Origin: Trichomonas gallinae
Taxonomy: Eukaryota
Reading direction: 5' to 3'
Length of the DNA: 64,000 bases
Assembly: GCA_008369845.1 (NCBI GenBank)
Contig: MRSU01010452.1
Coordinates: 1 to 64,000, forward strand
Shown: positions 43,603 through 63,112 of the stretch, piece by piece
Position numbering within the stretch: position 1 is the first letter of the stretch
Layout of the letters: each line of letters opens with the position of its first letter
Notes under the pieces: model-generated
Told to the model about the DNA's origin: nothing
Database searches by the model: none
Seen by the model: only the letters and a program-made list of their open reading frames with translations
Translations under genes and position numbers: made by a program

Positions 43603-44293
43603 AATGTCTATAGATAAAGAATAAAAATGGTTCAGATCATTTTGACATTGTTACAAGTTTTTAATAATATTATTTTATTAAAATCTTGAAAATGAACTGA
43701 CTCAATCACAATCATTGGGTTTTCTTTACCATAACTCATACACTACAGTTAACTTACATATTTTTCAAAATTATTTTGAAAAATTTCAAATTTCAGTCAT
43801 TTTGAGCCAAATCACTTTGTACATCTTCATATTTTACAATTTCAATTTGTTTTGCATTATAAATTTAGATCTTTCAATATTTATATAAAAGAAAATTAAG
43901 AAATGGATAATTTTGAACAAAAACACTAGAAATATTTTCATATTCTACAATTTTGATTAAATATAAGCTTACAAATCTCGATCTTTCAATATTTTATGAA
44001 ATACAATTGTATTGTTCAAACTTCTGTGATGCAACAATGTTATATGGGGAAAAACAGAAATACATGTTCAATACAACATAATGGATATGAAACTTTAGCC
44101 AGATTTCGTTTGGATAATTATTGATTTATAAAATTTGAAATATATCTGATATGTAATATACATATAGCAGAGTTGATGGCACCTCAACCAAACGAATAGA
44201 AAATCAATGTATAGATATAAAAAGTAATATAATCAAGAAATCATATGATATCGAAAGAAGAAGAAGAAAAAATAGAAATTGTCACTTTTTATA

Positions 44294-45250
44294 ATGATAT
44301 ATTTAATTCTTTTCAGGCTTCCTTCTGGCTACGAAAGTAATGAATCAGAGTTTGATCCTTATGCCACACTCGGTCTTAAGAAGTTCGCCTCGCAAAATGA
44401 TATCAATAGATCTTACAAAAGATATATTAATTATCGAAAAACACATTTAAATCCATCAGAAAAGATGCTTAAGCAATGGAATGATATCGAAAAAGCTTAT
44501 GATATACTCAAAACGGATGTTGGACGTTCAATTTATGATCAAATCGGAAATGAAGGTTTTGAATCAGAAACTTTTAAGATTGTTGGATATAAAAGCGACG
44601 AAGAAGTTATTTCTCTAGGATATTTTGATGCAAATAGAGCGAATCAAGCTTCTAAATTTGGTGGAATAATTACCTACCCGATTTATCTCGAATTAAAAGA
44701 CTTCATGACTGGCAAAAAGAAAAACTTCCACATATTTAGATCTGTTCCATGTGTTTGTGCACAAAAAGGAACAAATTGCAAGAAATGCAAGCAATCGCCG
44801 ATTATTTCGCAATATGAACACTATACTCTTTACGTGCCTAAGGGAACTAGACCATCTTCGCGTCTTTTTGCAAGCAATATTACAGATTCAGATAAACATA
44901 GAAGTGCAACTGATGTGATTTTTATTGCTTACGTTAAACCTAATAATAATTTCACTCTCGTTGGCCATGATCTATACAGTAATGTTACTATCCCTCTTGC
45001 ACAGTCTTTTACTAAGAATACAATTAATTTCAAGAATCTTGATGGACAAAATGTTCCTGTTTCATTCCAAAATGTAAGAGATGGTGATACAATTGTTGTT
45101 TCTGGCAAAGGTTTCCCATATCAAAATGATCCAAAGAAACGCGGAGATTTGATTTTAACTGTTAAGCTTCAGTTTCCGAAGAATCTTTCTAATGAACAGA
45201 AAGAAAAAATTAAAAAGATTCTTCCTGATGATATTTGTAACTATCAATAA
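44294..45250 (+). CDS. DnaJ-like protein (J domain without HPD, plus DnaJ_C)
   Basis: DPYATLG, AYDIL, RSIYD, GKGFP, RGDLILTV; N-terminal hydrophobic leader. Confidence 0.85.
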   Translation: MIYLILFRLPSGYESNESEFDPYATLGLKKFASQNDINRSYKRYINYRKTHLNPSEKMLKQWNDIEKAYDILKTDVGRSIYDQIGNEGFESETFKIVGYKSDEEVISLGYFDANRANQASKFGGIITYPIYLELKDFMTGKKKNFHIFRSVPCVCAQKGTNCKKCKQSPIISQYEHYTLYVPKGTRPSSRLFASNITDSDKHRSATDVIFIAYVKPNNNFTLVGHDLYSNVTIPLAQSFTKNTINFKNLDGQNVPVSFQNVRDGDTIVVSGKGFPYQNDPKKRGDLILTVKLQFPKNLSNEQKEKIKKILPDDICNYQ

Positions 45251-45650
45251 AAACTGTCTTGTATTTTCCTTTAAATAATATTTTTATTTTCTGTGGTATA
45301 CTACATAATATTATCGATAAAACAGTTCAATCAAACAAGAATTTTCTATCTCGAAAAATATTGTTTTCGATTATAAAAAGAAGTTCACTATAATAACTTC
45401 TGTCGACATTTGTTTACAATCAATGTGTCCCTGACGAGTTTAATGCAACTTTTTTGATTTTCTATGAAAATGCCTTTAAATATTGACAGAAGATGTATTA
45501 GGAAAAGTGATTTGGCATATATATACTCCAGATTTCACATGAAAACCTACAGAAAAAGAAAATATTTATATTTTTTAAATAAATCGTTTTTGGTAAAGAT
45601 TGCAATACAAAACATACTTTATTACGTGTAATATACAACTAATGATGGAT

Positions 45651-46253
45651 CTATTTGCTTATTTTGTGCAATTGACACAGAGTAGCATTTTCTGGGCATG
45701 GAGTGCGGCAAACTGTTTTATCTTCCTTTTTATGTGTGCATGTTGATACAAACTTTTGTTTTGAATATTTTGGATCTATTTGAATATGATTAATGCAATA
45801 TTGGAACTTTGGAATTGCATTGTTCAGACACTGAGGGCATTTACATATTTCTATTTTAACAGGAAGCTCTAATTCTTCAGATTGCATTTCGTAATATGTT
45901 GCTAGACTTTGTTTGAACTTAATGAAGTTATTTACACTCGTAAATTGATTGTTCATGTCTAATTCTGTGCTATGAAGTACATTTTGATCGACTTTTCCGC
46001 TCTCAATTTGCGAAGCGATACGTTTTATTTGATATTGAACGAATTCTTTCTTCATTTCATCTGTGTCAAGCTTTGTGTATTTTGTTGACTCGAATTCCTG
46101 GTTAGAAATGTCTCTAGGAATGGGATGCAAATCTTCAGGATTTGGAATATGGTCACCATACTTAGAAACATTCGGAGGAATGAATGGACTCGGTTCACCA
46201 ATATTTATCGATCTAAGATAATTATGAAAAATATCAGTAGCACTTAAAGCCAT
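45651..46253 (-). CDS. zf-C3Hc3H (KANSL2/INO80D-type) domain protein
   Basis: CxxxxC...YCINHI..D....C......C........C..H. Confidence 0.65.
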   Translation of the reverse strand: MALSATDIFHNYLRSINIGEPSPFIPPNVSKYGDHIPNPEDLHPIPRDISNQEFESTKYTKLDTDEMKKEFVQYQIKRIASQIESGKVDQNVLHSTELDMNNQFTSVNNFIKFKQSLATYYEMQSEELELPVKIEICKCPQCLNNAIPKFQYCINHIQIDPKYSKQKFVSTCTHKKEDKTVCRTPCPENATLCQLHKISK

Positions 46254-46987
46254 GATGTGAAAAAATATATACAAAAGTGACAAAATTGAATAACTCTGTT
46301 CATTTACTGAAAAGTGACAAATAAATAACATTTCATATCAAACATTTCAAATTTTGGCCAAACCGTCTGATGCATTGATGTCTTAACACTTAATGTATTA
46401 CCTCACTCATGTATGCCTGAGACAAAGAAACAGAATGAATATTGTCAGTTTAAACATTGATGAGTAAGAAAAATCACTGTGGCAGTTCTCATTCTCAACG
46501 AGTGCAATGAATTAGCTAGTTTCATGTACTCCTTGAGAATGGTAGCTTCCAAGAATTTTGTTATTAGAAGATAATATATTAAAATTCAAAAAGAAAATAA
46601 GAGACAATTAGATGAAAATCTAAGTAAACTAAGTATTATACTTATATATATCTAGTGATTATATGGTAGAAGTATTAAGACTCAAGCTTTAGTTAGAACG
46701 CATAATTCAATGTAATAATCCATATGAAGAATAAAATTTACCACCTAAATATATCTAGAGCAAGATAACCTAGGAATGATTCAATATTTAGCAAAAAAAC
46801 AACTTTCTGAAACAATAGAAATTTTCAACTCAGGTATCATAAAAGTGACAGAATTGAAAAGCTGTGTTTTGATATTGAAAGAGATAAAAGTGACATTGGT
46901 CAATGAGATAAAGGTGACAACTTACTGAAGGCATTGTCACTTTTCTTAATTATATTTTTGAAAAGCTCTGTTCGAAATTTTCAAAAA

Positions 46988-47653
46988 ATGGTAGGATACT
47001 CACAGGAATTGATCCAGCACAAAGTTGTGTTTGTAGGAAACTCAGCTGTCGGCAAAACATCAATCATTAACCAGTACATGTATGATTCCGTATCTAATGA
47101 TCACGAGCCAACGGTCGGTATCGACTTTTTCGCAAAAACATTGCATCTTGAAGGCAGAGATATCAGAATGCAAATCTGGGACACTGCCGGTCAAGAGAAA
47201 TTCCACTCATTAATCCCATCCTACATCCGCGACTCGACTGTCGCTGTTTTCGTTTTCGATATAACTCAGCGCCAGACATTCGACGATCTTGAGAAGTGGT
47301 TCAAGATGGTTATAGACATTGCCAATCCACAATTCGTTATCGTTGGAAACAAATGTGATCTCGAAGCAAATCGCGAAGTTACAAAGGAAGAAATTGCCAA
47401 ATACGCTGAAAGTAAATCTGCTAAATATATCGAAACAAGCGCAGTTACACCAACAAATATCAAAGAACTCTTCAATATTGTTGCTTTAATCCCAACTGAA
47501 GGTGAATCACAAAATGCGGCCCCAGCAGCTGCATCTGGAGATAAACCAGCCCAGCAGTCTGGAGAAACAGCTACAAAAACAACGGCTCAGGCACCAAGCA
47601 TTGACTTAACGAAGCCAAATGCTCCACAAAATGGTGGCGGCTGTTCTTGCTAA
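46988..47653 (+). CDS. Rab6-like small GTPase
   Basis: GNSAVGKTS, TVGIDF, WDTAGQEKFHSLIPSYIRDS, NKCD, CSC end. Confidence 0.93.
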   Translation: MVGYSQELIQHKVVFVGNSAVGKTSIINQYMYDSVSNDHEPTVGIDFFAKTLHLEGRDIRMQIWDTAGQEKFHSLIPSYIRDSTVAVFVFDITQRQTFDDLEKWFKMVIDIANPQFVIVGNKCDLEANREVTKEEIAKYAESKSAKYIETSAVTPTNIKELFNIVALIPTEGESQNAAPAAASGDKPAQQSGETATKTTAQAPSIDLTKPNAPQNGGGCSC

Positions 47654-47716
47654 ATATTCTATAGTGTCAATCTTTTAAAATATAACTGATAAAAGTTTAT
47701 TCGCCATTTTTTCATA

Positions 47717-48565
47717 ATGTTGTCAGGACTAAAGAGATATGAGAAAATCAAATATATCCAACAAGGGACTTTTGGCAGCATTTATCTGTGCAAAGACCTA
47801 CTAACGAACAAGACTGTTGTGTCTAAAGAGTCAGATATTGATGACATCAGTGACCAGGAAATTGAAACTCTTAAATCCTTAAAACATCCGAATATTATTG
47901 TCATGCTTGACACTTTCAAGGACTTTATGTCGCAATACATCATACTAGAGAACGGTGGGAAAGACTTATTAGCGATTTTAGATGAAAAACCAACAATGGA
48001 AATGAAACAGATAAAACACATAACGAGAGAAATACTCAAAGGCCTGGATTATATACATTCACACGGTTATATTCACAGAGATATCAAATCTTCGAACGTT
48101 TTAATTTCTGATTCAAACGAAGTTAAACTTATTGACTTTGGATACTGTCGCAAAATAGAAGGGAGGCCTCTTACGCCATCACGGTTTACAAATCAGTTTG
48201 CTCCACTCGATTGTTTGCTTGGATTAGAACATTATAATGAAAAAATGGATATTTGGGGTGTAGGATGCATACTTGGTCACATGCTTGCTGGTAAACTGCT
48301 TTTCGAAGGAGATGGACAAATTGCTGTAATAATGAGTATTATACAGGTTTTGGGCACTCCTAAAGCCGAAGACTGGCCTGAAATGAAAGAAATAGAATAT
48401 TTTAATGGGTTTAACCTCCCAGAACATCAGTCAACACTTAGAACAATTCTTCCGCCAAACGTTGACGAGAGTGCTGTAGATTTGATGCTGAAAATGCTTA
48501 CTGTTAGTCAATTCCATAGGATTTCCGCCCATGAAGCACTTGAACATCCGTTTTTAGCTGAATAA
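47717..48565 (+). CDS. CMGC/CDK-like protein kinase
   Basis: QGTFG, HRDIKSSN, DFG, DIWGVGCI, LGTP...WP, RISAHEALEHP. Confidence 0.9.
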   Translation: MLSGLKRYEKIKYIQQGTFGSIYLCKDLLTNKTVVSKESDIDDISDQEIETLKSLKHPNIIVMLDTFKDFMSQYIILENGGKDLLAILDEKPTMEMKQIKHITREILKGLDYIHSHGYIHRDIKSSNVLISDSNEVKLIDFGYCRKIEGRPLTPSRFTNQFAPLDCLLGLEHYNEKMDIWGVGCILGHMLAGKLLFEGDGQIAVIMSIIQVLGTPKAEDWPEMKEIEYFNGFNLPEHQSTLRTILPPNVDESAVDLMLKMLTVSQFHRISAHEALEHPFLAE

Positions 48566-49208
48566 ATTTATAAATTTATATGTATAGCAATATTAAGTCA
48601 TCTATGTGTCTTTTTGCCACAATTACACTAAAATTTATTGCTTATTTGACTGTTTTTATATTATCAATATGTTTGAAAGAAAAAAGATGTAAGACAAAGA
48701 TTACAATTTTTTTGGTGAAAAATTAGAAAATTCGTAAAAATCCAAAAAATTAAACCATAAATGTTCATAATAATTCACTAATATTCTTTAATTTTATCTC
48801 AAGCATATAAATAATAACTAATTTCCGATCTATGTAAAACTTGCCATTATTTGATTATATCTGACGTTCTTTTTTAGACGCTGTTGGGGAGTATTATAAA
48901 TACTTATCTGCCATTTTATGCCCATCTCATCCGAAAGTGAAAATGGCACATGTTTCGAAAATTCTCCAATGTTCAGGTCGAATGCCATGTTGTTTGACAA
49001 CAAATGTAGTTAAATAACACTTAGTGTTGTTATTTTACAGAGAATAGCAGGCATAAATTCATGTTTTGATTAAAATTTTGAATTATATTTTGATTATTCA
49101 GGGAAAAAACATTGTATAGACGACGAAATTACGAGCTATAGAAGGAAAAGAAGATATATATGTTAAAATTTCGGATTAATTCGTATTATAGACTTTTACG
49201 CAGATTGT

Positions 49209-50516
49209 TTATTTCTTGAGCTTAGCAATCTCAGCTTCTAACTCGGCAACACGGGCCTTAAGCTTTGTGTTCTCCTCCTTGAGGGACTCAAGTGTCTCTT
49301 CTGGAGCAGCTGTGACAGAGAAAGCAGCACCATCAGCTGGTGTGTAGCCGTTCTCGAGTGAGAACTTCTCGAACTTTGGCTGGCCACCGGCCTTCCAAGC
49401 ATCGAACTCGATAGCTGGGACTGGCTTCATTGTCTCTGGATAGATATCTTCCTGGAAGATTTCAGCATTCTTACGTGGGATGATTACCTGTGTTGTCTGG
49501 AGCTGCTTAGCCTGGTTGATAACGTAGAAGCGGTCGATTTCGCAAACGTTTGTGTCGACGCAGTACTTTGGAGCGCGGGCGAAGGCACGGATAGCCTCCT
49601 TGTTCTGGAAGGAGTTGCAGATGACGAGTGGGTTCTCGGCAGACTGGAGCTCATAGAAGCGGATGAGAGCATCACCACGGGAGAAGCAAGCAAGGACACC
49701 AAGGTCTTCATCGATGAATGGAGCAAGGATACCGTTGTTGGAGTCGACATCAATCTGGGCGAGGGCCTTCTCTGGGTTACGAACATCGCGGACGGCGATC
49801 TGGCGGCCAGAAGAGGAAGAGAAGCCTGTTGTGGCGATCATGTTGAGCTTGTCATAGAAGCAAGCACGGCCACCACGAAGGCCTGGGTGAGAAGCAACAG
49901 CGAATGTTTCAGCGTTGGCACGAACATCGAGAACGTGGAGCTTCTTATCCTTCATTGGGTAGCAGACGAGGTTACCGTTCTGGTTCCAGTTGATGTCAAG
50001 GAGAGCGTCCTTGCCTGGCTTGAATGTGAAAGCGCAGGCAGCCTTAGCAACATCCCAAACCTTGATGCTGTTCTCAGCACCGAATGAGACGATTGTGTTG
50101 TTAGCAGCTGGGTTCCAGGAAAGGCGTGTAACACGGCGGGAGTGGCCCTTCATGACAGCGAGAGAGTTGTTCTGCTCCTGGACATCTGTGCCGTTGAACT
50201 CGATCTGCCAGACGCGGATTGTGGCATCCTCAGCGGCGGAGGCGATGATGTTGTCGTTGAATGGGTTGAAGTCAACGTCAAGAACTCCACCTGTGTGGCC
50301 ACGGAATACGGAGTTTGTTGTTCCGACCTTGCCGTAGCCGTTAGCTGGAAGGACAGCGAAGAGACCACCACCAGATGTCTCAACTGGATATGCAACATAA
50401 CGATAGTTAGCTGCAAGGAGGTTTGTATCAACGGATGTTGTTGAGATGTTGACTTCCTGGTAGGACTTGTCTACTTTAGCGACCTCAGCATAGACGTGAC
50501 GATATGGGGATGCCAT
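49209..50516 (-). CDS. Coronin
   Basis: YRHVY, GHTGGVLDVDFNPFND, WD40 repeats, IPRKN..FQEDIYP, C-terminal coiled coil; strong codon bias. Confidence 0.96.
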   Translation of the reverse strand: MASPYRHVYAEVAKVDKSYQEVNISTTSVDTNLLAANYRYVAYPVETSGGGLFAVLPANGYGKVGTTNSVFRGHTGGVLDVDFNPFNDNIIASAAEDATIRVWQIEFNGTDVQEQNNSLAVMKGHSRRVTRLSWNPAANNTIVSFGAENSIKVWDVAKAACAFTFKPGKDALLDINWNQNGNLVCYPMKDKKLHVLDVRANAETFAVASHPGLRGGRACFYDKLNMIATTGFSSSSGRQIAVRDVRNPEKALAQIDVDSNNGILAPFIDEDLGVLACFSRGDALIRFYELQSAENPLVICNSFQNKEAIRAFARAPKYCVDTNVCEIDRFYVINQAKQLQTTQVIIPRKNAEIFQEDIYPETMKPVPAIEFDAWKAGGQPKFEKFSLENGYTPADGAAFSVTAAPEETLESLKEENTKLKARVAELEAEIAKLKK

Positions 50517-51613
50517 GTGTCAAAAATAATGTTAATCATGGGAAATTCAATTTTCTGAGTAGATAAAAAGTGACGGGACATTCGAACCTGGTTACACATA
50601 CTGCATATATAAATATAATTTGGCAATTAAAATTTTTAACTGAATTTCGGCGGTTTTTATTACTCCATTTCGTTTGCCTGGATCAAAAATTTGTAAATAA
50701 CGGCAAATAAGACATTTTGAGTTTTCAGCCTTTTTGTTGAGTTTTCACAAAATGTTGATTTCCTCCAATATATAATGATTTAACAGAAATGTTAGAATTT
50801 TCCAAACCGTTTTCCAATTCAAAAGTTGAATGTCACGTGTTATCACTCTCAATTTTAAAATCATTTCACTTCATATTTAATTGTTTACACTTCGGTTTTT
50901 AAATTTCGTATGCAATAACTGAATTTCAATAGAACAAAGTTTTTGTTGACTGTAAAAAAAAAAGTTTTCGTTGGCTGCAGAACAAAAATCGAGGATAAAT
51001 GACTAAAGGAACTGAAATTGATTAAAATGAATATGATACATTGCTACGTTGGGCCAATATAACTGTTCCATTGGTATTATTTTAGACAGATTCCATGATG
51101 GTCGGATTGGCATTATATTTATTCCCAAAGTTCACCATATTGAGACAATAGAAACATTTTGTTCCAGGCCAACGAACGGAGCCATTTCATAGCTATGACG
51201 TTCAGAAGACTTTGGCTTATTACAAATTTAGAAATTAGCTCTAAATCATACTTGCCCCTAGCTAATTTCGTAGCATTCTTTCATGTCATTGTATAAATGG
51301 ATGTTTAAGGCTGATTCAAAGAACTTTTATTCGACCTAATGTATACATCTCGAAATTCGTGTTCGATTATGATATCCATAAGTCTAATGACATTATGCAT
51401 CGATTGTTAGCTCGCTGACTGTTATTTTTTGATATTTGATTCAACAGAAATTTCGAATATCCAAGATTTCCTGCCAGAACAAAGAAATTTCGATACATCA
51501 ATTTCCAAGCTGTACATCTTATGAATGCTTTTTGTTTGTAAAAATTCACGAAACAAAAAAAAAAAAAATTAAGCAGGGGGTGACTTTTTAATTTGGTGTT
51601 TTTTTTTATTTTT

Positions 51614-51991
51614 ATGACACATCTCACCGTCATCGTTCTTGAGGCTAAGGGTGTTCCAAAGGTCGATCCAGTCGGCTGGGCTGATCCATTCGTCCAATTG
51701 AGACTCACAAACGGAAAGGTTGAGGAGACAAAGGTCAAGAAGAACGAAAAGAATCCAATTTGGGATACACGTTTCGTTTTTCCAGTTTTAAACAAGAGTG
51801 ATAGCCTCCACATCCGCTTAATGGATCATGACTCACTCTCTGCTGATGATCCAATCGGAACACTTCAGATCCCACTTTCTAAATTTGAACAAAACAAGGC
51901 AGTCCTCGATTGGTTCCCACTTGCAATCTGCCCAAAGCTTAAGCCAGAGGCTGAACCACTGGCGGTTAGACTCGTCGTTGAATTGAAGTAA
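51614..51991 (+). CDS. C2 domain protein
   Basis: VLEAKGVPKVD..G.ADPFV, KNPIW, MDHDSLSADDPIG. Confidence 0.9.
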   Translation: MTHLTVIVLEAKGVPKVDPVGWADPFVQLRLTNGKVEETKVKKNEKNPIWDTRFVFPVLNKSDSLHIRLMDHDSLSADDPIGTLQIPLSKFEQNKAVLDWFPLAICPKLKPEAEPLAVRLVVELK

Positions 51992-52228
51992 AAATATCTA
52001 AGCACTACAACAAAAATAATACTAATGCATATATATTGTTTATTCATGAGTACAGCAACATTAATAGCTATCGATATAAATGATTAATTTGAATTTTATA
52101 ATGATTTTGCATAAAGAAAAATGATAATTATACCATTCTATATACCGGTATGTAGATAATTAATTCTTCATGCGATTTTGTTTCAATTCACAATAAATTA
52201 TTAATCTTATTGAAACTATAATTACATT

Positions 52229-52552
52229 TCATATTCCCTTTAAACGTTGTTTAGATCGATCTAATCTCATTTGTAGACAGATTTTTGCGCGATTTAGCTT
52301 TTGTTTATTTTCTTTTTCACGTAACCATTCAGAATAAGGCTTACCAATGTTTTTAGGGATAGGTTCTGGTGCCTTTTCTTTAGGTATTGTATTCCTTTTA
52401 ACATATCGATCAACGTTTTTCATAGCAGATAATTCAGTTTTCAAAACATCTGTTGCATGGCTTTCTCTATATCCTTCCCTCATCTTCTTTTCCATCGCAT
52501 GAGCTTCTTCACTCGTATAATGTTTATCACTACAATACAAAAAAGTTGTCAT
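52229..52552 (-). CDS. Small hypothetical protein
   Basis: 107-aa ORF starting at ATG, charged composition. Confidence 0.55.
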   Translation of the reverse strand: MTTFLYCSDKHYTSEEAHAMEKKMREGYRESHATDVLKTELSAMKNVDRYVKRNTIPKEKAPEPIPKNIGKPYSEWLREKENKQKLNRAKICLQMRLDRSKQRLKGI

Positions 52553-52780
52553 TACAATTTTATGACAAATAATTAATTTTACATGTCAAAATCATTTACC
52601 ACCCCCTGCCTAAAAAACGGTTGGAAAGAATGAGGGAAAAATGTGATGAAACAGCATTTGGAGTAATTTTTGAGTGCCCAAACTATGGTTTTAGCATCAG
52701 TATGTTATACCACATATGCTGATTAAATATGAGACCATCTTATTATTAGCATATTTTTTACAAATTTGTCAAATAATAAA

Positions 52781-52966
52781 ATTACACGACAAAATTTCTA
52801 TTTATATGTCAAATAATATCATTACATGCCAAAATTCTATTAATTCGCCAAATAATAAAATTACATGACAAAATTTTTAGATATTTGACAAACAATAATT
52901 TTACACGTCAAAAATTTATTTGTCAAAATTAGTTTACACGACAAATTTAATATTTACATGTCAAAA
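52781..52966 (+). promoter_or_regulatory. Array of ~7 TTACAYGWCAAA motifs upstream of the LRR gene
   Basis: Copies near 52781, 52801, 52821, 52861, 52900, 52932 and 52953. Confidence 0.6.
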
Positions 52967-52997
52967 TGAAAATTATACGTTTATAACATCAAAAGAT

Positions 52998-54782
52998 ATG
53001 ATTCGCAATAGGACCCGTCCTCCATTCGAATATCAACGACAGGGGCCTATTGCGCGTCCTGCTGGTCATAGGCCAGATCTTGGTATAGCAATTAATGCTC
53101 GAACAAGACAGAATTACAACAATTACAATCAAAATACCGTAAAAAATTCCAAAACACCACGAAAAATATCAGTGAGACGTAAAACAGCGAATATTGTTGA
53201 CTCTATTTATCTTTTGGAGTTATTAAATGCATCAGATCTTTCAAATATTCAATTTATCGAAGCATCAGGCAAAAAATTAACAGAAATTGATGTAGAAGCT
53301 TTTAAAGAACTTATGTCACTCGAAAAAGCTGATTTTAGCGATAATAAACTACCTATGGAACCATTTTCAGTAATTAAATCATTAAAAGAACTCGATTTGA
53401 GCTGCAACTCTATTAAATCATTCGATTTTAGGTCATCAGAAGAACTTTGCGATGATAATAGAGCATGGGATTCGTTGATAACTTTGAATTTATCATTCAA
53501 TTATTCATCATCTTTCATCAATGAGCTTCAGCTCATGCCTCATTTAACTAACCTCAATCTTTCTAATAATTCAATATCAGAATTACCAACAAATCTCATG
53601 CATTTTACATGTTTAACAAAATTAAATTTAACAGGTAACTCAATTAATACAGATCAGAGCTTTTACGCGCTTTCAACTATAAGCTCATTGCAGACATTGA
53701 TATTAGATGACAACCAAATCACCACAATTCCAAAATTTTCTTTCGGATTTGAAAGCTTGCAAGAATTATCATTACGACGCAATCACATAGAGTTCGTTGA
53801 TGATATGACATCATTAATTGAAGTTAGCTCGCTAGAAAGAGTTAATATCACGAATAATCCAATCGTTCTTCGCTCAAAACAGATGAAAGCCGTCGATGAC
53901 GTGTTCGAAAAGACAAAAATCATAATAATTACTGAAGAAAAACCGAATAGAGTTCAAAAACGCGCACTTCCTGTTAATGTCCGCACAGTCAACTTTGATC
54001 CACTGACTCTCCCATCATTTACCAAAGGCCATCTTCGCGCACTGAACAAGAACTCAAAGAAGCTCAAAGAAAGAGCGCAGAAAGAAAAGGAAGAAGCAAA
54101 AGAAGAGGAAGAAGCGGACGAACTCGAAGAGAAATTCCTGCCGAAAACAGTGCAACAACAAACGAAGACAGAAGAAAAGTCATCATTCTTCCTCACTGCG
54201 ACAGATGCGAAAGGCAACGAAGAAGAAAAGTCCCCGGAAAAGCAAGAAATCGTCGAAGAAGAAGAGGAAGAAATCGTTGAAGATGAAGAACCACAGATTA
54301 CATCAATTTGGAGGGAAGTTCCTGTAGTTGATGCATCAGAGAGATTGCCACTTAATAACCGTCGCAGGCAGGACTTCATGCAGGCTTTCAGGAAGCTCGA
54401 GTTCATCTTGTCTCATCCGGACGTGAGAATCAAGCCGAGGGAAAGCACATCGAGGCAGCAGCAGAAGGAGAAGCCAAAGGAGCCAGAAAGCGAGCAGCCC
54501 GACCTTCTCCAGTCAGTGCCGAGGCCATCGAAGACGAGGAGGAGGCAGAAGGACGCCACAATGTCGAAACTTGCAGCGAGAACAGAGTACACGAAGACGG
54601 AAGTCCAGCAGATGCTCAAGAGTATGGCGGAGAGACTTGGCACTGTCGAGAAGGACTTGAACGCTGCAGATGAGACAGGAATGCGCGCAGTTGACATTGC
54701 TCTCGAGCAGAAGAATTTCTCAACCCTTCAGAAGCAATACGAGACAATTCGTGCTGAGCTTATTAATGCATTGAATTCATAA
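52998..54782 (+). CDS. Leucine-rich repeat protein (XRRA1-like)
   Basis: Several LxxLxLSxNxI repeats, SFFLT motif, coiled-coil tail; first ATG at 52998. Confidence 0.8.
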   Translation: MIRNRTRPPFEYQRQGPIARPAGHRPDLGIAINARTRQNYNNYNQNTVKNSKTPRKISVRRKTANIVDSIYLLELLNASDLSNIQFIEASGKKLTEIDVEAFKELMSLEKADFSDNKLPMEPFSVIKSLKELDLSCNSIKSFDFRSSEELCDDNRAWDSLITLNLSFNYSSSFINELQLMPHLTNLNLSNNSISELPTNLMHFTCLTKLNLTGNSINTDQSFYALSTISSLQTLILDDNQITTIPKFSFGFESLQELSLRRNHIEFVDDMTSLIEVSSLERVNITNNPIVLRSKQMKAVDDVFEKTKIIIITEEKPNRVQKRALPVNVRTVNFDPLTLPSFTKGHLRALNKNSKKLKERAQKEKEEAKEEEEADELEEKFLPKTVQQQTKTEEKSSFFLTATDAKGNEEEKSPEKQEIVEEEEEEIVEDEEPQITSIWREVPVVDASERLPLNNRRRQDFMQAFRKLEFILSHPDVRIKPRESTSRQQQKEKPKEPESEQPDLLQSVPRPSKTRRRQKDATMSKLAARTEYTKTEVQQMLKSMAERLGTVEKDLNAADETGMRAVDIALEQKNFSTLQKQYETIRAELINALNS

Positions 54783-55435
54783 CTTTTTGTTTGTGTTTTT
54801 TAAAAATATATTTTGTTTAAAATTATTTTAGTGTGAAAATTGGTAGGCAACATTATAATTATGATAATGAATCTAAATTTTAAGGCGATTTCAGATATTT
54901 TTTAAAATCTAATATGAGGTCAACACAAAGACAAATCATAACAAAACACCTTTGATTTGGACATCATAAAAAATCTATCATTAAATCATTATCTCCTCCT
55001 AACATATCCTGGTATAAATATGAATGCAAAAGATTAAAACAGCTTTGATTCTAGTTTCATATAAAGGATATCATGAAATAATTGAACTTCTCCTAAACAG
55101 TTCCTGGAATAGATGTCAAGTTAAAAGATTAAAACAACAGAACGGCTTTGATATTGGCTTCAAAATTTGGCCATTAAGAAAATAAAGTATCTTGCAAGTT
55201 TATGCGGCACTATATATTTCTTTCGTTGCTGTTGTTATGTAATTATAATATGTTCTATCATATGTCAAAATTATTTGTCATTTACATGTCAATTTAAAAC
55301 AATTTACATGACAAATTAATATTTTCCTGACCATGATGAATTTTTAAGTGAAAACTACCCAGAATAATAAATAACACCTAATTTTCGTGTTAAATCAAGA
55401 ACTATAAAACATACGACTTTTTAAAATTGTCAAAA

Positions 55436-58400
55436 ATGGATGATTCATCAAAAAAGTATGTTGAAGACTTAATGAACAGCCAATCAAATCGTGTTTTGAT
55501 GATATCATCATGCAATGTGACAAGTAAGGGCAAAAAATATAATGCTTTTGCTTGCATTACTGAATTTAATTTATCAATTTTCACAATTCAACACGAAACA
55601 AACAAAATTGGAATAGACAAAGAGATGAATTGGATGGAAATGACATCATTAAAACAAATAGAATCACAAAGCATCGAAATTTATTTTGCAAATGAAAAAT
55701 ATATAATAGAATCCATTGATATTAATGACATTTACCAAACTATCTTATCGCATCTGTACGATATATTCAGTAAAAATGAACTTGAAAAGAAGAATGTTGA
55801 TATATCATATTATAATAGCCTAACATGTAATTTTAGGGCAAGAATAGGATCAACAATCCAACTATACGAGAAATCCATCAACAACAATAAATTTACACAA
55901 ATAACGAAAGATTTAGATATCATATCTACAGATTTTATCAATACAAAACTAGTTTCAGAAATACCAGAGTATTTTCCATATGCTTTACAATCATTAAATG
56001 GTTTCACATTAGTTAAAAGGCTTATAATAGAAAATCTCCCAAAATCATTGGAAAATTTCATTATGGAATTCTTCAAAACAAATGAAACAATACAAGAACT
56101 ATATTTAATTTCATGCTGTGAAGACACTTTACCTCAAATATTCGAACAAATCGGAAAATCGAAAAAATCCAAAATAAAAAAAAATATCAGTGAATTCATT
56201 GAAGTTTTCTCTTCAGTCAAACAAGAGATTAAGATATCTACTAGATAAGAAGCAAATAGACCAAATAGAAGTAATCAATTCCCTAAAAGTCACGCCAATT
56301 CACGTTTTCATTACGAATATATCAAAATCGAAGAATTTCCGTAATGTCAAGAAATTTGTTTTCGATCAAAACACTTTTGAAATGTCAAAGCACATACCAC
56401 TAATAGCGGCAATGAACTCTGTCTCTATTGCAAATACTAAGATAAACGGTGCTGATGTATTATCGCAATTATCAAATAATGAAAAATCGATTTTAGTTGA
56501 AGCGAATTTGTCAGGAAACTTATTTTCTTGTGATAAATATTTCGAAATCCCTAAGAACATTAATAGCTTGATACTCAACAACTGCGACTTCGCAAAAGGC
56601 TTGGCATCACTGTTTCAGAAGTTTTTCGAATTGAAATCAAGAAAATTGTTTTTATCAATAAATGCACCAAAAAATCGAGAAAAAATTGCAGATGTTTTTG
56701 AAGTTTTAGAAAACCTCAATCCAAAGCATTTATCAAGTTTTAGCTGGGATGACAACATTTATGATGAGAGACTGATTAATTTTCTATTGAAAGCAAAATC
56801 GTTGCATGAATTTTCATTCTCAAGAGTCGTTAAAAATGACAGCGAATTTTCATCATTGATAAAATTGCTTGAAAGTTTAAAGAAATTTACGAAAATTACA
56901 TTAGCAGGTGATGCCAATAAAATTGCTGGATCAACGGAGAAAATATTATCTGTTTTGATGCACAAGAAACACATCAGATATTTGGATCTTTCGAACAGAA
57001 TTTTTGATGAAAAATGTTTCGAAATTTTAGCAAAAATGTTGAACAAGAGAACAAAAATCGTTTATGTGAACTTCGATGGTTGTGAAATTACAGATATAAA
57101 CGTAATTGATAGATTTATAGGCAAAATACAAAACAGAAAACCAATAACAATAAATGTTCCAGCTGAAACTTTCAAAATAATGATAGAAAAAGGAACAGAT
57201 AAACAAAAAATCGAGGAATTAACAAGAAAAATAGTAAATCTCCGAAACAATGAAGATGAATCCATAAATAACGAGAAAATTGATGAAAATGAAGAAGAAT
57301 CAGAAGCAGAAAAATTCATTGTCAATTCACCAAAAAATTTGAATTTTTCGTCATCTTCTGACGAAGAAGTCCAAACAAAACAAACAATTAAATTTTCATC
57401 ATCTTCTGATTATTCATCGGATGATGATAATTCTATTAACAAGAAACAAAACAAGTATCAAAAGCCTCCACCATTATCAGATGATGACGAGTCTGATTCA
57501 ATTCCAGGAAATATTCAAAGAAAATTCGATGTTTCTTCTGATTCAGATGATGATGATGAAGCAGTAATGAAGAGTATGAAGAGAAAACAAAACCTACATG
57601 CGAGTTCTTCACAAGAATCAGATAGAATTTCATATTCAGATGATGGCGCATTGAAGTCTACACATAAGAAAGTGATAAAATCTGATGACGAAGGCTCTAG
57701 TGCTTTGCCTGCACCCAGAATTCTCGGCCAAGTTCATCCGATGACAATGTTCAACAATCCAACAAAATTAAACTTAAATTCAGTTCAGATTCATCATCAG
57801 AATCATCACAAATAATTAGTAGTCGAAAATCAAATCAAAACAATGGAAAGAAGAATAAGGAAGATCAAGAAAAGAAACTCAAAGAAGAACAAGAAAAGAA
57901 TAATAAGGAAAAGCAAGCAAAAAAGATCAAGAAAGAAGAGAAAAGGATGAAAGAAGAACAAGAAAAGAAGTTGAAAGAAGAACAAGAAAGGAAGCTTAAA
58001 GAAGAACAAGAGAAGAAACTTAAAGAAGAACAAGAAAAGAAACTTAAAGAAGAACAAGAAAGGGAATTCAAGGAAGAACAAGAGAAGAAACTTAAAAAAG
58101 AACAAGGGAAGAAAGAATGGAATAAGGTAAAGAATAATGCGAAAAAAATATTGCAAGAAAAAACCCAAATTAAAGAAACAGATGAAAATCGAAGAAACAA
58201 GAGTTCCAAAAAACAAATACAATCTTCTGAATCAGAAGAAGAGCAGTCTTATGAATATCACAAAAATATAGACTCAGACAGTTCTTCAAGAAAAATTCTC
58301 GATACATCAAGCAGCTCAAGCGAAAAGAAACAAGACAAAAAGAAACAAAACAAATCTTATTTCGTTGAATCGGAATATTCTCACTTTTCAGAAGAAAAGA

Positions 58401-58918
58401 CTCAGTTTTCCAGATCAACAATCAATTCACCATTTAGAATCAGACCATCGAGAAGACCACACATTGAACCAGAAACATTCACGCCAATAGAGATAAGAGA
58501 GATGACTCCAGCCAGGAAAACCAGGCCAATGCCAGAGCAGATATACGAGGACTTCAACCCATACGCAAAAAAGTTTGTACAAAATGACTCTGAAGATGAA
58601 AATTACTCGGAAGAAGAAAAGCCGCAAAAAATTCCGCGAAAAGTCAATTACAGGAATCCAAAATATACAATCCTAAAAGTCAAAGAGCCAGAGCATGATG
58701 AGCCTGATCTTGAAAAAGATCCAAAGGTTAATTTCAGCTCTGATGATGGAAAAATCGAAATCGAAAATAATTTCGAAAGTGAGTTTAGCGCGAAAAAACT
58801 TGATTGGACATTCGATATTCCTATTATTTTACAGCCATCTACTAAGAGAAAAATAGAAGAACTCACCAAGCAGTTTTCATTGAGGCCACTTGCTGCTTCT
58901 GTATCGAAATCAAAATGA
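55436..58918 (+). pseudogene. CARMIL/LRRC16-like PH+LRR gene split by two frameshifts
   Basis: Three overlapping frames join at the A9 run (56176-56184) and at ~57701-57722; LDLSN and VNFDG LRR motifs. Confidence 0.65.
57950..58108 (+). repeat. 24-bp coding tandem repeat (KEEQEKKL), ~6.5 copies
   Basis: AAAGAAGAACAAGARAAGAARCTT units. Confidence 0.9.
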
Positions 58919-59273
58919 ATTTAATTTTGTGTTGTTTAAAAAATATGTGATTTTGTTATTAATGAATCTTATATGTCCACTATATTACTGTTATTAGTTA
59001 TATTAAGTTTAATAATTCAATTGATAATTTGAGAGTTTGAAAATCTGTCATTTTGTTATATATTTTGTAGATTTTGGAAATAATCAGACAAATATGCAAC
59101 AACCAATAATCAAAATTGTTCAAAATCAAATTGAAAATATTTTGGAAATATTGTTTTAAAACAAATGTGCTTGAGCTATGCTATTAGCTAAAATAACAAT
59201 ATTGTTGTCAACATAATCAAACAAAACATGATTTATACATACAAAAACAAGATAAAAATAAGTTTCGATTCAT

Positions 59274-60254
59274 TCATTTAAAAGCAGCCGAATAATTCAG
59301 TCTTGTGAATGAATCCTGCTCACTTATCAAACGCTTCAACTCTTCATTTCTTCCTCTTAGCTCATTTATTTCTTCTTCCATTTTTGAAAATTCTTCAAAC
59401 AAATGATATGATTTAGATTCGTCTTCTTTGGGGACAAGCGACGACTTAGCAATAATCATTCTTAATCTAGTAATATCTTCGTTAATTTCTTGAATTTTTT
59501 CGCGATTATGATTTGCAATACTTTGATACATCTCCTCTGTTGTTTTTAGCTCGAAAATCTGCTTGTTTATATCATTCTCGTATTGCTCTCGTTCTTGTTG
59601 GTATTTTCTAGAGATTTGGTCCATTTTTTCTTTGTGTATTTTTTCGATTTCGACAATTTGTTGTTTAAATTTCTGATTTGCTTCATTTGACTCTCTCTGT
59701 TGCCTTTTCTTCTCGTTTATTGTATCCTCAATCTGCCCAGCAACAGCAATAACTTGTTGGTTTCGCTGAGTAACTAATTTACTAATTGCTGTGTCTATTG
59801 AGTCAACAACTGATGTATATTTTTCAGACAACTTCTTTGCACGCGTAAATCTATAGTGTTTATCGTTAAAGTCGCCAGAAATGATAAATTTTGCAACAAA
59901 ATCTTCTGTATCTTGTAAGGCCGTGCGTAACTCATTGTGAACATATTCTAGCTCCTTCTCATGTTTTATTTTGAGTTTGTTAGCTTCAGAATTCATAATT
60001 TCGATAATTGCAGAAATTTCTTGCTGATATTCCTTTCTATTATTGTCTCGCTGATATGTGAGTGCATCTATCTCTGATTTACTCCTTAAATCGTCATCTC
60101 TGATCTTTTTTTCGGTATCCTGAATTTCTCTTTGTACTTCAGCCAATTCTTTGTTTGCTTCGTCTATCTGGGTCCTCAGCATCTGCACAAGCTCTTCAGT
60201 TGTCTGTCCTTTCTGTGCATTTTTCGTTGCCGGACGTTTATGGATTCCATACAT
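59274..60254 (-). CDS. Coiled-coil protein
   Basis: 326-aa heptad-rich ORF. Confidence 0.8.
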   Translation of the reverse strand: MYGIHKRPATKNAQKGQTTEELVQMLRTQIDEANKELAEVQREIQDTEKKIRDDDLRSKSEIDALTYQRDNNRKEYQQEISAIIEIMNSEANKLKIKHEKELEYVHNELRTALQDTEDFVAKFIISGDFNDKHYRFTRAKKLSEKYTSVVDSIDTAISKLVTQRNQQVIAVAGQIEDTINEKKRQQRESNEANQKFKQQIVEIEKIHKEKMDQISRKYQQEREQYENDINKQIFELKTTEEMYQSIANHNREKIQEINEDITRLRMIIAKSSLVPKEDESKSYHLFEEFSKMEEEINELRGRNEELKRLISEQDSFTRLNYSAAFK

Positions 60255-60716
60255 TCATTTATGGGTCTTCCACTAAAATACAGGGTCCATTATTTAAAAT
60301 TAGTTAACCAGGGTCTTACAAAAAAATAAAGGGTCCAAATTTTAAAAGAAGTAGTTGAGGGTCCAAATTTATTTATACGATATAGATATACCAACATTGA
60401 AATATGTTAATCATTATTACAATATTGAACGGAAGCACCGCGACTATTATTCCAATTCTGTTCAAACAACGAAATTGTATTTTATTTTCGTTATCCTTTT
60501 GATATTTTCGAAAACAAATTCAAAAAATAGCAAGCTTATGAATAATGTTGACTTATTACCGCATAATGTCAAATCGAGAAAAAATTTCACGGGCGTCGAA
60601 CACTAAAATAATAGGTTTAATAAATTATATTGTTAATGTATTTGTTATTTGTAGTAATAAAAATGTCATTTTAAATAAATAAACGGTTATGTCAGTTTTC
60701 TGTTAATTTTTTTCAA

Positions 60717-62636
60717 ATGGAAGCAGCCAATAAAATCCTCGAAATAGAAAGTCTTAAAGTAAAGAAATTTAGTGAAGTCCAGATAATGGATGTTTTCAAG
60801 AACTACCACGAAGCTTCTACACTTATTTTAGCCAAAAATTTAAATGTCGACGAAATTTGCGAAAAATTAACGAAAATGATCGAAGAAAAACTCATCAGTA
60901 TCCAATTCGTTATTAAAACAATTCTTCATGCAGCTGATATAAATTACAAAGAAAAGCAAAATCTTGCCAATTTAGCTTCTAAATTAAAAGAAAAATTCGA
61001 ATTTAAATTAAGAGAAAGAGATGAAGAAAACCTTCAGAAATTGATTGTACCAGAACAGGTCGACACTGAGTGTCCATTCTATCTGGTCAAAAACGATCTC
61101 GTTGACAAACTCAAAGAGAAAATTATCGACTTCGCAAAATTAATGACAGATGATAAAACATTGTTAGATTTCGCATGCAAGTACGGCTCACTTCAGTGTT
61201 ATGAGTTTCTCATCGAAAAGGGCTGCACAATCACAGATAACACAATCAAATACGCAATCCAGGGCCAAAACATGAAGATTATCGAAAAAATGGATAAAGA
61301 AAAAATCGGAAATTATCTTTCAGCAGCTATCTCTGTAAATAACAATGAACTTGCTGATTGGATTCTCGCCAATTATAAGGCAAAGGCTGTTACAGTCAGC
61401 CAGTGCATGGATTCATCAAATTTCGTTGCCGCATCTTTCTTTATTGAAAATGGATTTGATATCAAAGAAATGTGTGAAATTTTTTGTTATCATATAACGC
61501 TATTGAGGTTTGTTATAATATAACTATGTTTATCTTGAAATTAGAGAATTTATCAAATTTTAATAATGGAATTTGTTATTATAATATACGACAATTTATT
61601 ATATATAAATGAAATATATCATGTTTACATCAAAAGAATCCACTTTGTGTTGCAATTGAATTTAATTCTTTGGATATCGCAAAATTCTTAGTCGACTTCG
61701 GTGCTGAGACAAATTGCATTTATATTCATCTTTAACAGACAGAGAAATTCATTGTTATTTCAAAAAATTTATAATTTTCTTATTACGATATTCATTTTGT
61801 GCTTTTTCAAGCTTTCATTATTTTGTTATTTCGCAGTTCATTATATTTTCATTATGGTGACGTTCGTTTTTTAATTTTGAAGTTGAATTTTGTCCGTTAG
61901 CCATTGCAATCGAATGTAATTTACTTGAATTCGTCAATTTCCTTATCGAGAACGGTGCTGATGTTAATGTCACTTTAATTCATTATTTAATAATTTAATT
62001 CTTTATTAATTTATACTCACGTTCATTTTTACTTCATTGGGTTCATCATATTCTTAGAAACGCATTCATTTTGCTTTAATTGGGTTCATTTTATATTTTT
62101 AATGATATTCATTATTTATCAATGAAATGAGTCCTCTTAGTATTGCAATCGAACAGCATAACCTTGATATTGTTACTTCCTTAGTTGAACACGGCGCTAA
62201 TGTCAACATTGTTTTAATTTATTTTAATATTATCAAGTTCATACTTCATCTCATCACATTCATTATATTATCATAGCCAAATTCATTATTTCTATTTGGC
62301 ATTCATTAATATTTAATTGCACAATTTATCAAAATATAACAAATGCCCGCTTTCAATTGCAATTGTTGAGAAATCTGCTGACATTGCTTCTTACTTGATT
62401 AACCATGGCGCCGACGTAAACACAACAATCAGAGTCCACACAATTCATTTTATTCTTATAATGGAGTTTATCATTCATTCAATACGTTCTTCACTCTTTT
62501 ATGAAGTTTTTTGTTTGTTTTTGAGAAAAGCCTCTTCTCGCTCGCTAACGAAAACAGATTCGAAGATATCATTCCTGATCTTGTTGAACATGGCGCAAAT
62601 CAAAACGGTGGACGCTCAAGCTGCCGCATATTCTAG
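60717..62636 (+). CDS. DUF3447/ankyrin-repeat protein with CaaX end, in six coding segments: 60717-61478, 61628-61723, 61879-61977, 62118-62216, 62329-62442, 62523-62636 (junctions approximate)
   Basis: N-terminal LLDFACKYGSLQCYEFL...AIQGQN...NELADWIL, then five intact ankyrin repeats in shifting frames, ending SSCRIF*. Confidence 0.75.
61479..61627 (+). other. Intervening sequence 1 (~149 nt)
   Basis: AT-rich, in-frame stop, lies between GFDIKEMCE and HQKNPLCVA. Confidence 0.65.
61724..61878 (+). other. Intervening sequence 2 (~155 nt)
   Basis: Starts ATTCAT, lies between GAETNCIY and EVEFCPLAIA. Confidence 0.65.
61978..62117 (+). other. Intervening sequence 3 (~140 nt)
   Basis: Starts ATTCAT, lies between GADVNVTL and INEMSPLSIA. 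Confidence 0.65.
62217..62328 (+). other. Intervening sequence 4 (~112 nt)
   Basis: Starts ATTTAT, lies between GANVNIVL and SKYNKCPLSIA. Confidence 0.65.
62443..62522 (+). other. Intervening sequence 5 (~80 nt)
   Basis: Starts ATTCAT, lies between GADVNTTIRVHT and EKSLFSLANE. Confidence 0.6.
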
Positions 62637-63112
62637 AAAAAAAACCTAAGCTGCGATTAAAATTATTTTATTTTAAATTATCATATTGATATGAAAATGC
62701 AATATCTACGCACCATAGTCCTGAAATACAAAGCAGATGGTCCTAATATTGTATTTAATTTTAAGAAAAAAATTATCATGATTTAAGCCTCATAAAACAT
62801 ATCAACAGCTCACATAAATCAATAATGTATAAGAAAATCAACTTTATATATTCTAATTTAATGAAAATTAATTTCAACAAATTTTTTTTGAAAAAAATCA
62901 CTTTTGACTATAAAATACTCCATAACTCATCTATTTGCGTTTATGACATGTATGCTACAGCTCATTTTAAATTAAATTTGATTTATCAAATTAGAAAATA
63001 GAAAATAACTATTTTTAATTATAGAACATTCCATATAGTATAGAATTATATTAAATATTTGCGATGTGCAGCTTGGTATCAAATTTATCTAAATATTTTA
63101 TTAAATAATAGC

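What the first reader, a model, noticed from the sequence alone, without database searches (positions are those of the whole stretch)
61479..62522. Shared junction signature and TTCATT periodicity inside the ankyrin inserts
Seen: with junctions placed to restore loop length, all five inserts start at a codon boundary with ATT (ATTTTT, ATTCAT, ATTCAT, ATTTAT, ATTCAT) and end in a T-run (TTTA or TTT). Inserts 2-5 contain repeated TTCAT(T), often ~20-23 nt apart (e.g. 61790/61813/61836, 62021/62041/62064/62083/62107, 62237/62258/62281/62301). Inserts 1 and 5 share TAATGGARTTT. Some junctions have matched flanking codons (TGT/TGT in insert 1, ATT/ATC in insert 3, TTA/TTA in insert 4), as take-off and landing sites in translational bypassing would. 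Inference: these are cis-signals for the removal machinery. Alternatively TCATT, which matches the trichomonad initiator TCAYT, may mark internal promoters that express the repeats as separate modules.
Basis: partly seen in the sequence, partly recalled or inferred. Interest (0 to 1): 0.75.

Follow-up and report, generated by a model that had tools for sequence, protein, structure and literature searches.

The report
Stacked 17-base introns in trichomonad genes
In an ankyrin-repeat gene of a trichomonad protist, each AT-rich insert is a stack of 17-base segments that mostly lack the usual GT-AG intron ends and are separated by one to four codons; a likely RNA-derived contig lacks all 31 and encodes an intact protein, so they are likely an undescribed class of tiny introns, predicted also in Trichomonas vaginalis.

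Summary
The motifs are real, but the inserts are neither bypassed nor removed whole. A contig from a run that behaves like a transcriptome (X2) joins across all five inserts yet keeps 12-36 letters of each. These resolve into 26 micro-exons of 3-12 nt between 31 introns: 30 of 17 nt, one of 18 nt, all between codons. Removal gives a 463-aa DUF3447-ankyrin protein with no internal stop. A DNA-type run from a related strain keeps every insert. The TTCATT boxes are intron 5' ends (RTTYAT), and the 20/23-nt period is 17 plus one or two codons. Only 2 of 31 introns are GT..AG; there is no fixed branch adenosine and no consistent hairpin. Truncated C-terminal tails of homologs, including a large T. 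vaginalis subfamily, fit the same phase-0 array model, there with back-to-back units (protein-level inference). Ten literature searches found no description. Most likely mechanism: stepwise removal by a relaxed spliceosome that reads the 5' motif and measures 17 nt; a non-spliceosomal or ribosome-framed cutter is the main rival. RNA support is one contig from one run.

The parts
60717..62636 (+). DUF3447 + ankyrin-repeat gene; 1392-nt spliced CDS, 463 aa plus stop
   Evidence: Pfam DUF3447 E 3.9e-7 and ankyrin hits for exon 1 and four downstream pieces; the last piece had no Pfam hit. Open frame after removing 31 introns. X2 contig 60724-62643.
60717..61478 (+). Exon 1 (762 nt), N-terminal region and DUF3447
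61479..61630 (+). Array 1: seven 17-nt introns starting at 61479, 61508, 61528, 61548, 61571, 61594, 61614; micro-exons of 12, 3, 3, 6, 6, 3 nt (11 residues)
   Evidence: 33 of 33 kept letters equal the X2 letters
61631..61723 (+). Core ankyrin exon (93 nt)
61724..61878 (+). Array 2: seven 17-nt introns starting at 61724, 61747, 61767, 61790, 61813, 61836, 61862; micro-exons of 6, 3, 6, 6, 6, 9 nt (12 residues)
   Evidence: 35 of 36 kept letters equal the X2 letters
61879..61977 (+). Core ankyrin exon (99 nt)
61978..62123 (+). Array 3: seven 17-nt introns starting at 61978, 61998, 62021, 62041, 62064, 62084, 62107; micro-exons of 3, 6, 3, 6, 3, 6 nt (9 residues)
   Evidence: 26 of 27 kept letters equal the X2 letters
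62124..62216 (+). Core ankyrin exon (93 nt)
62217..62340 (+). Array 4: six introns starting at 62217, 62237 (18 nt), 62258, 62281, 62301, 62324; micro-exons of 3, 3, 6, 3, 6 nt (7 residues)
   Evidence: 21 of 21 kept letters equal the X2 letters; only one length pattern possible
62341..62442 (+). Core ankyrin exon (102 nt)
62443..62522 (+). Array 5: four 17-nt introns starting at 62443, 62466, 62486, 62506; micro-exons of 6, 3, 3 nt (4 residues); the last intron has no adenosine in this strain
   Evidence: 11 of 12 kept letters equal the X2 letters; only one length pattern possible
62523..62636 (+). Last exon (114 nt), terminal repeat and TAG stop

Best explanation
Each insert is a stack of 17-nt segments that start with RTTYAT, lie between codons and are separated by 3-12-nt pieces that a likely RNA-derived contig keeps, and they are likely introns cut out of the pre-mRNA one after another by a relaxed spliceosome that reads the 5' motif and measures about 17 nt to the 3' cut. 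Shown: the DNA has the stacks, the X2 contig lacks exactly these 31 segments, and the frame is restored. Inferred: X2 is RNA (about 0.93); removal goes 5' to 3', so each micro-exon first becomes the end of a long 5' exon; the 3' site is set by distance with only a weak preference for A at -2; the machinery is the spliceosome (about 0.55 overall); the stacks grew by slippage duplication of intron or intron-plus-codon units, which alone would keep every intron in phase 0. The kept codons build the lengthened loops between ankyrin repeats (repeat spacing 37-45 aa), which in ankyrins form part of the binding surface (established knowledge).
For:: one X2 contig (1404 nt, depth 75) has five joints with 32, 35, 25, 21 and 11 letters between; net loss 119, 119, 119, 103, 68 = 7x17, 7x17, 7x17, 5x17+18, 4x17; the X1 contig keeps all inserts; 126 of 129 kept letters equal X2; 463 aa, no internal stop; the fewest gaps that explain each array equal the number of introns, and 24 of 31 lengths are forced; the 8 listed X2 pieces lie within ORFs, 7 of them ending within 30 nt of an ORF end, at depth 4-384, while the listed X1 pieces run through intergenic DNA at 25-32; signal is concentrated at +1 to +6 (T at +2 and +6 in 30 of 30) plus A at -2 (25 of 30); a matrix trained without an array ranks that array's true starts in the top 4-7 of 73-148 places. 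For the spliceosome: the 5' motif fits the trichomonad type B motif GTWYWD with +1 relaxed to A (PMC12316389); 15-16-nt introns are spliceosomal in Stentor (PMC9505925); the U2 spliceosome removes non-GT/AG introns in Fritillaria (PMC13326754).
Against: RNA support is one contig from one run whose RNA status is a guess in the record, from another strain (about 96% identical); no raw reads, intermediates or lariats were seen. Against the spliceosome: 20 of 31 introns start with A and 24 of 31 end in T; only 2 are GT..AG; no position holds an invariant A, two introns have no A at -12 to -3 and one has none at all in this strain (X2's own intron letters are unknown); the trichomonad branch motif CTAAC is absent from the arrays. 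Seven of 31 lengths depend on where a 3-nt micro-exon is placed. No snRNA or splicing-factor evidence could be had: no genome is held, Rfam gave 0 hits.
Confidence: 0.55

Rival explanations
1. The same 17-nt units are removed by a non-spliceosomal cut-and-join enzyme system with a 17-nt ruler, possibly framed by the translating ribosome, which would explain why every cut falls between codons.
For: All 31 introns are phase 0 and all 26 micro-exons are multiples of 3; the 10 introns with forced length and no slide are all phase 0 and none is GT..AG. No branch consensus. In 55 T. vaginalis tails, allowing zero-length exons raises the fit from +20 to +213 nats while 1-, 2-, 4- or 5-nt exons add nothing. 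17 nt is near the distance from P site to the ribosome's leading edge (recalled, from no call).
Against: Duplication of intron or intron-plus-codon units from one phase-0 ancestor explains the phase without a ribosome; position +4 is array-specific (0 of 5000 permutations), as local duplication predicts. All cases seen are one gene family. No hairpin as IRE1 or tRNA endonuclease need. The 5' motif resembles a known spliceosomal one.
Confidence: 0.32
2. X2 is DNA or transcript of an intron-less copy (retrocopy or allele) in another strain, and the window's gene is not processed.
For: X2's library is not on record and it is a different strain.
Against: X2 behaves as a transcriptome. It shares most listed variants with X1, whose contig keeps all inserts, and X1 showed no joined form. 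A precise loss of 31 segments would itself need a processed RNA.
Confidence: 0.06
3. TCATT boxes are initiator elements that start separate transcripts for single repeats.
Against: One contig spans the whole gene and the boxes lie in removed segments at a 17+3k spacing.
Confidence: 0.02
4. The ribosome bypasses the inserts on an unprocessed mRNA using matched take-off and landing codons.
For: Inserts start at codon boundaries.
Against: The X2 contig lacks the segments and keeps internal codons; flanking codons at the true ends are unmatched.
Confidence: 0.01
5. Assembly or reverse-transcription artefact, or a decayed pseudogene.
For: One contig only; AT-rich sequence.
Against: Inserts are present in an independent DNA run; 14 of 31 junctions have no repeated flanking base; 30 of 31 gaps have one length and restore a 463-aa frame; chains of three or more motif hits occur only in this gene in 64 kb, both strands.
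Confidence: 0.02

Closest known systems
Trichomonad type B spliceosomal introns (PMC12316389; abstract, Results part 1, Discussion part 1 and pipeline methods read)
   Same: Short, U-rich, uniform length; 5' motif GTWYWD matches the G-starting members here.
   Different: Type B are 23-26 nt, all GT-AG, with a TCTAAC branch motif fused to the 3' end, one per transcript. Here 17 nt, 2 of 31 GT..AG, no CTAAC, 31 in one gene.
Stentor coeruleus 15-16-nt introns (PMC9505925; passages read)
   Same: Near-fixed tiny length, AU-rich.
   Different: Stentor introns are mostly GU-AG with a branch A at position 10 or 11; neither holds here, and the passages read mention no arrays with codon-sized exons.
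Fritillaria borealis non-GT/AG introns (PMC13326754; abstract and introduction read)
   Same: Non-canonical ends removed by a U2-type spliceosome.
   Different: Genome-wide class in a tunicate; the parts read describe no fixed 17-nt length or stacked micro-exons.
IRE1/RtcB (XBP1, HAC1) and tRNA-type short introns (PMC5435141; passages read)
   Same: Very short, non-canonical, frame-shifting if kept.
   Different: Cut within stem-loops, single and regulated; here no consistent folding signal and 31 units.
Schistosoma micro-exon genes (PMC4015677; passages read)
   Same: Runs of micro-exons in a parasite; exon skipping yields variants there.
   Different: Their introns are ordinary long spliceosomal introns and their exons mostly symmetric (recalled). 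Skipping was not observed here.
T. vaginalis 'readthrough' genes (bioRxiv 10.64898/2026.08.31.748405; abstract and section 9 read)
   Same: One transcript spans closely spaced predicted genes, ankyrins among them.
   Different: Explained there by stop-codon readthrough; array removal is not mentioned in the parts read. Some of those loci might be arrays (untested; supplements closed).

Membership tests
Canonical U2 (GT-AG) introns | GT..AG or GC..AG ends | tested here: not met
   2 of 31 GT..AG; no sliding placement gives another
Canonical U2 (GT-AG) introns | Branch adenosine near the 3' end | tested here: not met
   No invariant A; 2 of 31 lack A at -12 to -3, one lacks A entirely in this strain
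Canonical U2 (GT-AG) introns | Lariat formation and snRNP dependence | not testable with these tools
   No raw reads or genome
Trichomonad type A/B introns | 5' GYAYGY or GTWYWD | tested here: inconclusive
   G-starting members mostly fit GTWYWD, but 20 of 31 start with A and one with T
Trichomonad type A/B introns | Branch motif CTAAC fused to the 3' AG | tested here: not met
   No CTAAC inside the arrays
Trichomonad type A/B introns | Length 23 nt or more, one per transcript | tested here: not met
   17-18 nt, 31 per transcript
U12 (minor) introns | 5' RTATCCTT and TCCTTAAC branch box (motifs recalled) | tested here: not met
   Consensus is RTTYATT; 2 of 31 are AT..AC; no branch box
Stentor-type tiny introns | 15-16 nt, GU-AG, branch A at a fixed place | tested here: not met
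IRE1/tRNA-endonuclease or hairpin-defined introns | Stem-loop at or across the cut sites | tested here: not met
   Intron plus 6-nt flanks fold at 0 to -2.8 kcal/mol in 30 of 31 (one at -7.5); array z-scores 0.2, -0.2, 0.0, -2.5, -1.5
Micro-exon genes (Schistosoma type) | Runs of micro-exons of 3n length (3n feature recalled) | tested here: met
   26 of 26 are 3, 6, 9 or 12 nt
Micro-exon genes (Schistosoma type) | Variant transcripts by exon skipping | not testable with these tools
   Only contigs were available; they drop rare variants
Translational bypassing (T4 gene 60 type) | Gap kept in mRNA, matched take-off and landing codons | tested here: not met
DUF3447-ankyrin protein family | DUF3447 followed by ankyrin repeats | tested here: met
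   homologs named in T. vaginalis G3

The most novel reading that the evidence does not exclude
Trichomonads have a second, non-spliceosomal mRNA-processing machine that ratchets along a transcript deleting 17 nt at a time at codon boundaries, possibly guided by the ribosome, and uses it to assemble, and perhaps vary codon by codon, the binding loops of a large ankyrin family that is now annotated as truncated genes, T. vaginalis included.
Probability: 0.3. Interest if true: 0.98.

Novelty: categorically new. Interest (0 to 1): 0.92.

Why it matters
Trichomonads are described as intron-poor, with 63 GT-AG introns, one per transcript, the shortest 23 nt (PMC12316389). This one gene has 31 introns of 17-18 nt that fit no class tested. 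If the protein-level signal holds, at least dozens of T. vaginalis DUF3447 genes annotated as short proteins are longer, multiply spliced genes. They would have been missed because the published pipeline used default STAR settings and dropped junctions lacking known motifs (STAR's 21-nt minimum is recalled). Mechanistically it tests how little a spliceosome needs (no GT, no AG, no branch consensus, one-codon or zero-length exons) or points to a new processing enzyme, in a culturable, transfectable human parasite. If the ordinary spliceosome turns out to do it, the rating drops to a new variant of a known kind.

Tried and rejected
No own genome is held, so no genome-wide census or snRNA search was possible. 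The look-up of sequencing runs listed no holder on record as RNA; runs X3 and X4 laid nothing, which is no evidence either way. The second laying (40501-60500) showed no X2 joint among the 15 rows shown (10 rows not shown, 1 joint dropped at a repeat), so arrays in other genes are neither shown nor excluded. DNA of arrays from other organisms was not obtained: the alignment query had no conserved stretch, and the single metagenome scan and one viral scan carried a spacer one base too short, so they did not test the 17-nt unit; their 13 and 2 loci were chance matches. The correctly spaced pattern matches once in the window. A viral scan for three boxes in a row gave 48 loci, nearly all simple tandem repeats, none an ankyrin array by eye. 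No spliced full-length protein of this gene or of T. vaginalis array genes turned up. Rfam gave 0 hits. Folding gave no consistent structure. Overall within-array similarity was only marginally above between-array (286 of 5000 permutations; positions 7-15 none), so duplication is supported only by position +4. At protein level a 15-nt intron with exons 2 nt longer fits as well as 17 nt (-14.6 against -14.7), so tails fix the period and first phase, not the length. Two of six T. vaginalis tails tested singly were not significant (19 and 14 of 200 shuffles). No structure of the spliced protein was predicted. Earlier scan findings held nothing related.

Full report
Setting. The window is a gene-dense, about 33% GC eukaryotic sequence. 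Its gamma-tubulin is 84% identical to a partial T. vaginalis protein and 61% to Histomonas meleagridis, and the best DNA holder is a bird metagenome, so it is most likely a trichomonad. No whole genome is held. The finding lies in a gene starting at 60717 whose first ORF carries DUF3447 (E 3.9e-7) and whose ankyrin repeats are scattered over short pieces in different frames.

The observation. TTCATT occurs 16 times in the five inserts against a shuffle mean of 1.3 (0 of 2000 shuffles reach it), and at 24.4 per kb against 1.2 per kb in 106 AT-rich tiles. The five ATT starts and both TAATGGARTTT copies are as described. The T-run ends hold for only two of five inserts, and the matched flanking codons disappear at the true ends.

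What the contigs show. Four runs were laid on 60500-62800. X1 (DNA-type) has one 5216-nt contig covering 60579-62772 with 97 other letters and no gap in the inserts, so they are not an assembly artefact. X2 has one 1404-nt contig at depth 75, running from 60724 to 62643, that skips all five inserts but carries 32, 35, 25, 21 and 11 letters between the sides. X3 and X4 laid nothing. The net losses are 119, 119, 119, 103 and 68 nt. The between-letters are ordered pieces of the inserts. Parsing by window coordinates gives 31 introns (30 of 17 nt, one of 18 nt), all in phase 0, and 26 micro-exons (12 of 3 nt, 12 of 6, one of 9, one of 12). The result is a 1392-nt CDS of 463 aa without an internal stop, and 126 of the 129 kept letters equal X2's, a difference rate like that in the long exons (compared by eye). 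Using the window's own kept letters as stand-in, the minimum number of gaps equals the number of introns in every array; 24 of 31 lengths are forced and 7 depend on where a 3-nt piece is placed. Fourteen of 31 junctions cannot slide; ten are both forced and fixed, all phase 0 and none GT..AG.

Is X2 RNA? Its library is not on record. On 40501-60500, the 8 X2 pieces listed (of 44 records laid) lie within ORFs, seven ending within 30 nt of an ORF end, with depths from 4 to 384 and bins up to 1971; the listed X1 pieces cross intergenic DNA at depth 25-32. X2 therefore behaves as a transcriptome. It is one run and one contig, from a strain about 96% identical to the window.

Anatomy of the unit. 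In the 30 17-mers, +1 is A (19), G (10) or T (1); +2 and +6 are T in all; +3 T (29); +4 C or T; +5 mostly A; -2 is A in 25; -1 is T in 23. Ends over all 31: AT..AT 14, GT..AT 4, GT..TT 3, GT..AG 2, AT..AC 2, AT..TT 2, four others. No position holds an invariant A, and the intron at 62506 has no A in this strain. Folding shows no consistent structure. A matrix trained on four arrays ranks the fifth array's starts at the top, and chains of three or more hits at 17/18+3k spacing occur only in this gene in the window.

Relatives. A search of 1.84 billion representatives gave 756 hits, 150 listed. Of 112 whose match reaches the end of DUF3447, 42 stop within 75 residues, often in tails rich in F, I, L, Y and H. 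Of 20 clusters looked up, 7 are or contain T. vaginalis G3 genes. I scored tails with a model that back-translates the protein and asks whether it fits an array with the window's matrix. For 22 of 49 tails chosen by composition alone, the 17/18-nt phase-0 model scored +54 nats over an unstructured null; 100 shuffled sets averaged -116 (maximum -86); phases 1 and 2 scored -65 and -44. A further search returned 97 proteins, 76 newly seen and named T. vaginalis; 55 had an anchor and a 4-60-residue tail, 21 were dropped. Phase 0 scored +20, phases 1 and 2 -267 and -128; with a slightly different length mix the set scored +12 against a shuffled mean of -200. Allowing zero-length exons raised the score to +213, whereas 1-, 2-, 4- and 5-nt exons left it at +17 to +21, which suggests back-to-back 17-nt units. 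These 55 belong to one expanded subfamily and are not independent, and this is inference from protein, without DNA or RNA of those genes.

How it most likely works. Shown: DNA has the arrays, the X2 contig lacks them unit by unit, and the frame is restored. Inferred: a machine recognises RTTYAT at the 5' end and cuts again 17 nt (rarely 18) downstream. Working 5' to 3' would turn each micro-exon into the end of a long upstream exon and would also handle back-to-back units. I put the spliceosome first (0.55): the motif overlaps trichomonad type B GTWYWD, T at +2 and A at -2 are the letters it normally holds, and precedents exist for 15-16-nt introns and for non-GT/AG ends. The absence of a branch consensus, the A-less intron and the strict phase keep a non-spliceosomal or ribosome-framed process at about 0.3. 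Strict phase 0 does not decide between them, because duplication of intron or intron-plus-codon units would preserve it; position +4 is array-specific, as such duplication predicts. The kept codons add 11, 12, 9, 7 and 4 residues to the inter-repeat loops. Because every exon is a whole number of codons, skipping would vary these loops without frameshift; this was not observed and contigs cannot show it.

Comparison and novelty. The units fail the defining tests for canonical U2, U12, trichomonad type A/B, Stentor-type and hairpin-cut introns (membership table). Ten full-text searches listed no paper describing such arrays; the library lacks most subscription journals. Read: PMC12316389 (abstract, passages, Results part 1, Discussion part 1, section 15); bioRxiv 10.64898/2026.08.31.748405 (abstract, section 9); PMC13326754 (abstract, introduction); passages of PMC9505925, PMC5435141, PMC4015677, PMC10711314, PMC12428144, PMC13735942; a term search in PMC12289875 that hit only its references. 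No supplements were read; the preprint's gene lists, which are closed, may bear on whether some readthrough loci are arrays. The Giardia non-canonical junctions in ankyrin genes are long, GC-rich and rarely spliced, unlike these.

Verdict. A real and unusual feature: stacked 17-nt non-canonical introns with codon-sized exons, supported by one RNA-like contig and by protein-level signals in homologs. Removal from RNA about 0.9; spliceosomal mechanism about 0.55; presence in T. vaginalis about 0.8.

Noticed in passing
proteins P0233-P0320: A large T. vaginalis DUF3447 subfamily is annotated as ending 7-50 residues after the last ankyrin-like motif; the best-path decoding of most long tails shown is a repeating pattern of two 17-nt units and one codon.
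   Followed up: partly
P0156 (TVAG_004680): The annotated protein appears to read through a whole array in frame (61 residues) into the next ankyrin repeat; a 17/18-nt mix fits it best (1 of 100 shuffles).
   Followed up: partly
P0174 and P0229 (TVAG_019730, old and newer models): The newer 'partial' model leaves out about 20 nt after the DUF3447 end and changes frame into an ankyrin-like sequence (read from the two proteins); this may be a 17-nt intron plus one codon.
   Followed up: no
window 55394-58918 (+): Three overlapping ORFs look like one long gene with two frame breaks, the first near an A-run at about 56171-56184; X2 gave almost no cover. Assembly error, pseudogene or single small introns not resolved.
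   Followed up: partly
window about 46470-46690, 52570-52980, 55030-55325: Many X1 contigs match briefly and run off here, as for dispersed repeats or transposon ends.
   Followed up: no
window 1-64000: No match to the type A or type B trichomonad intron patterns I used and no Rfam family.
   Followed up: yes
window 61479-61630 versus 61724-62340: Intron position +4 is T in all of array 1 but mostly C in arrays 2-4 (0 of 5000 permutations), hinting at local duplication.
   Followed up: yes
P0207 (JGI/IMG) and P0325 (Tritrichomonas foetus): P0207's tail fits the array model (0 of 30 shuffles); P0325 ends in a short hydrophobic tail after an ankyrin motif (not scored). The arrays may extend beyond Trichomonas.
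   Followed up: partly
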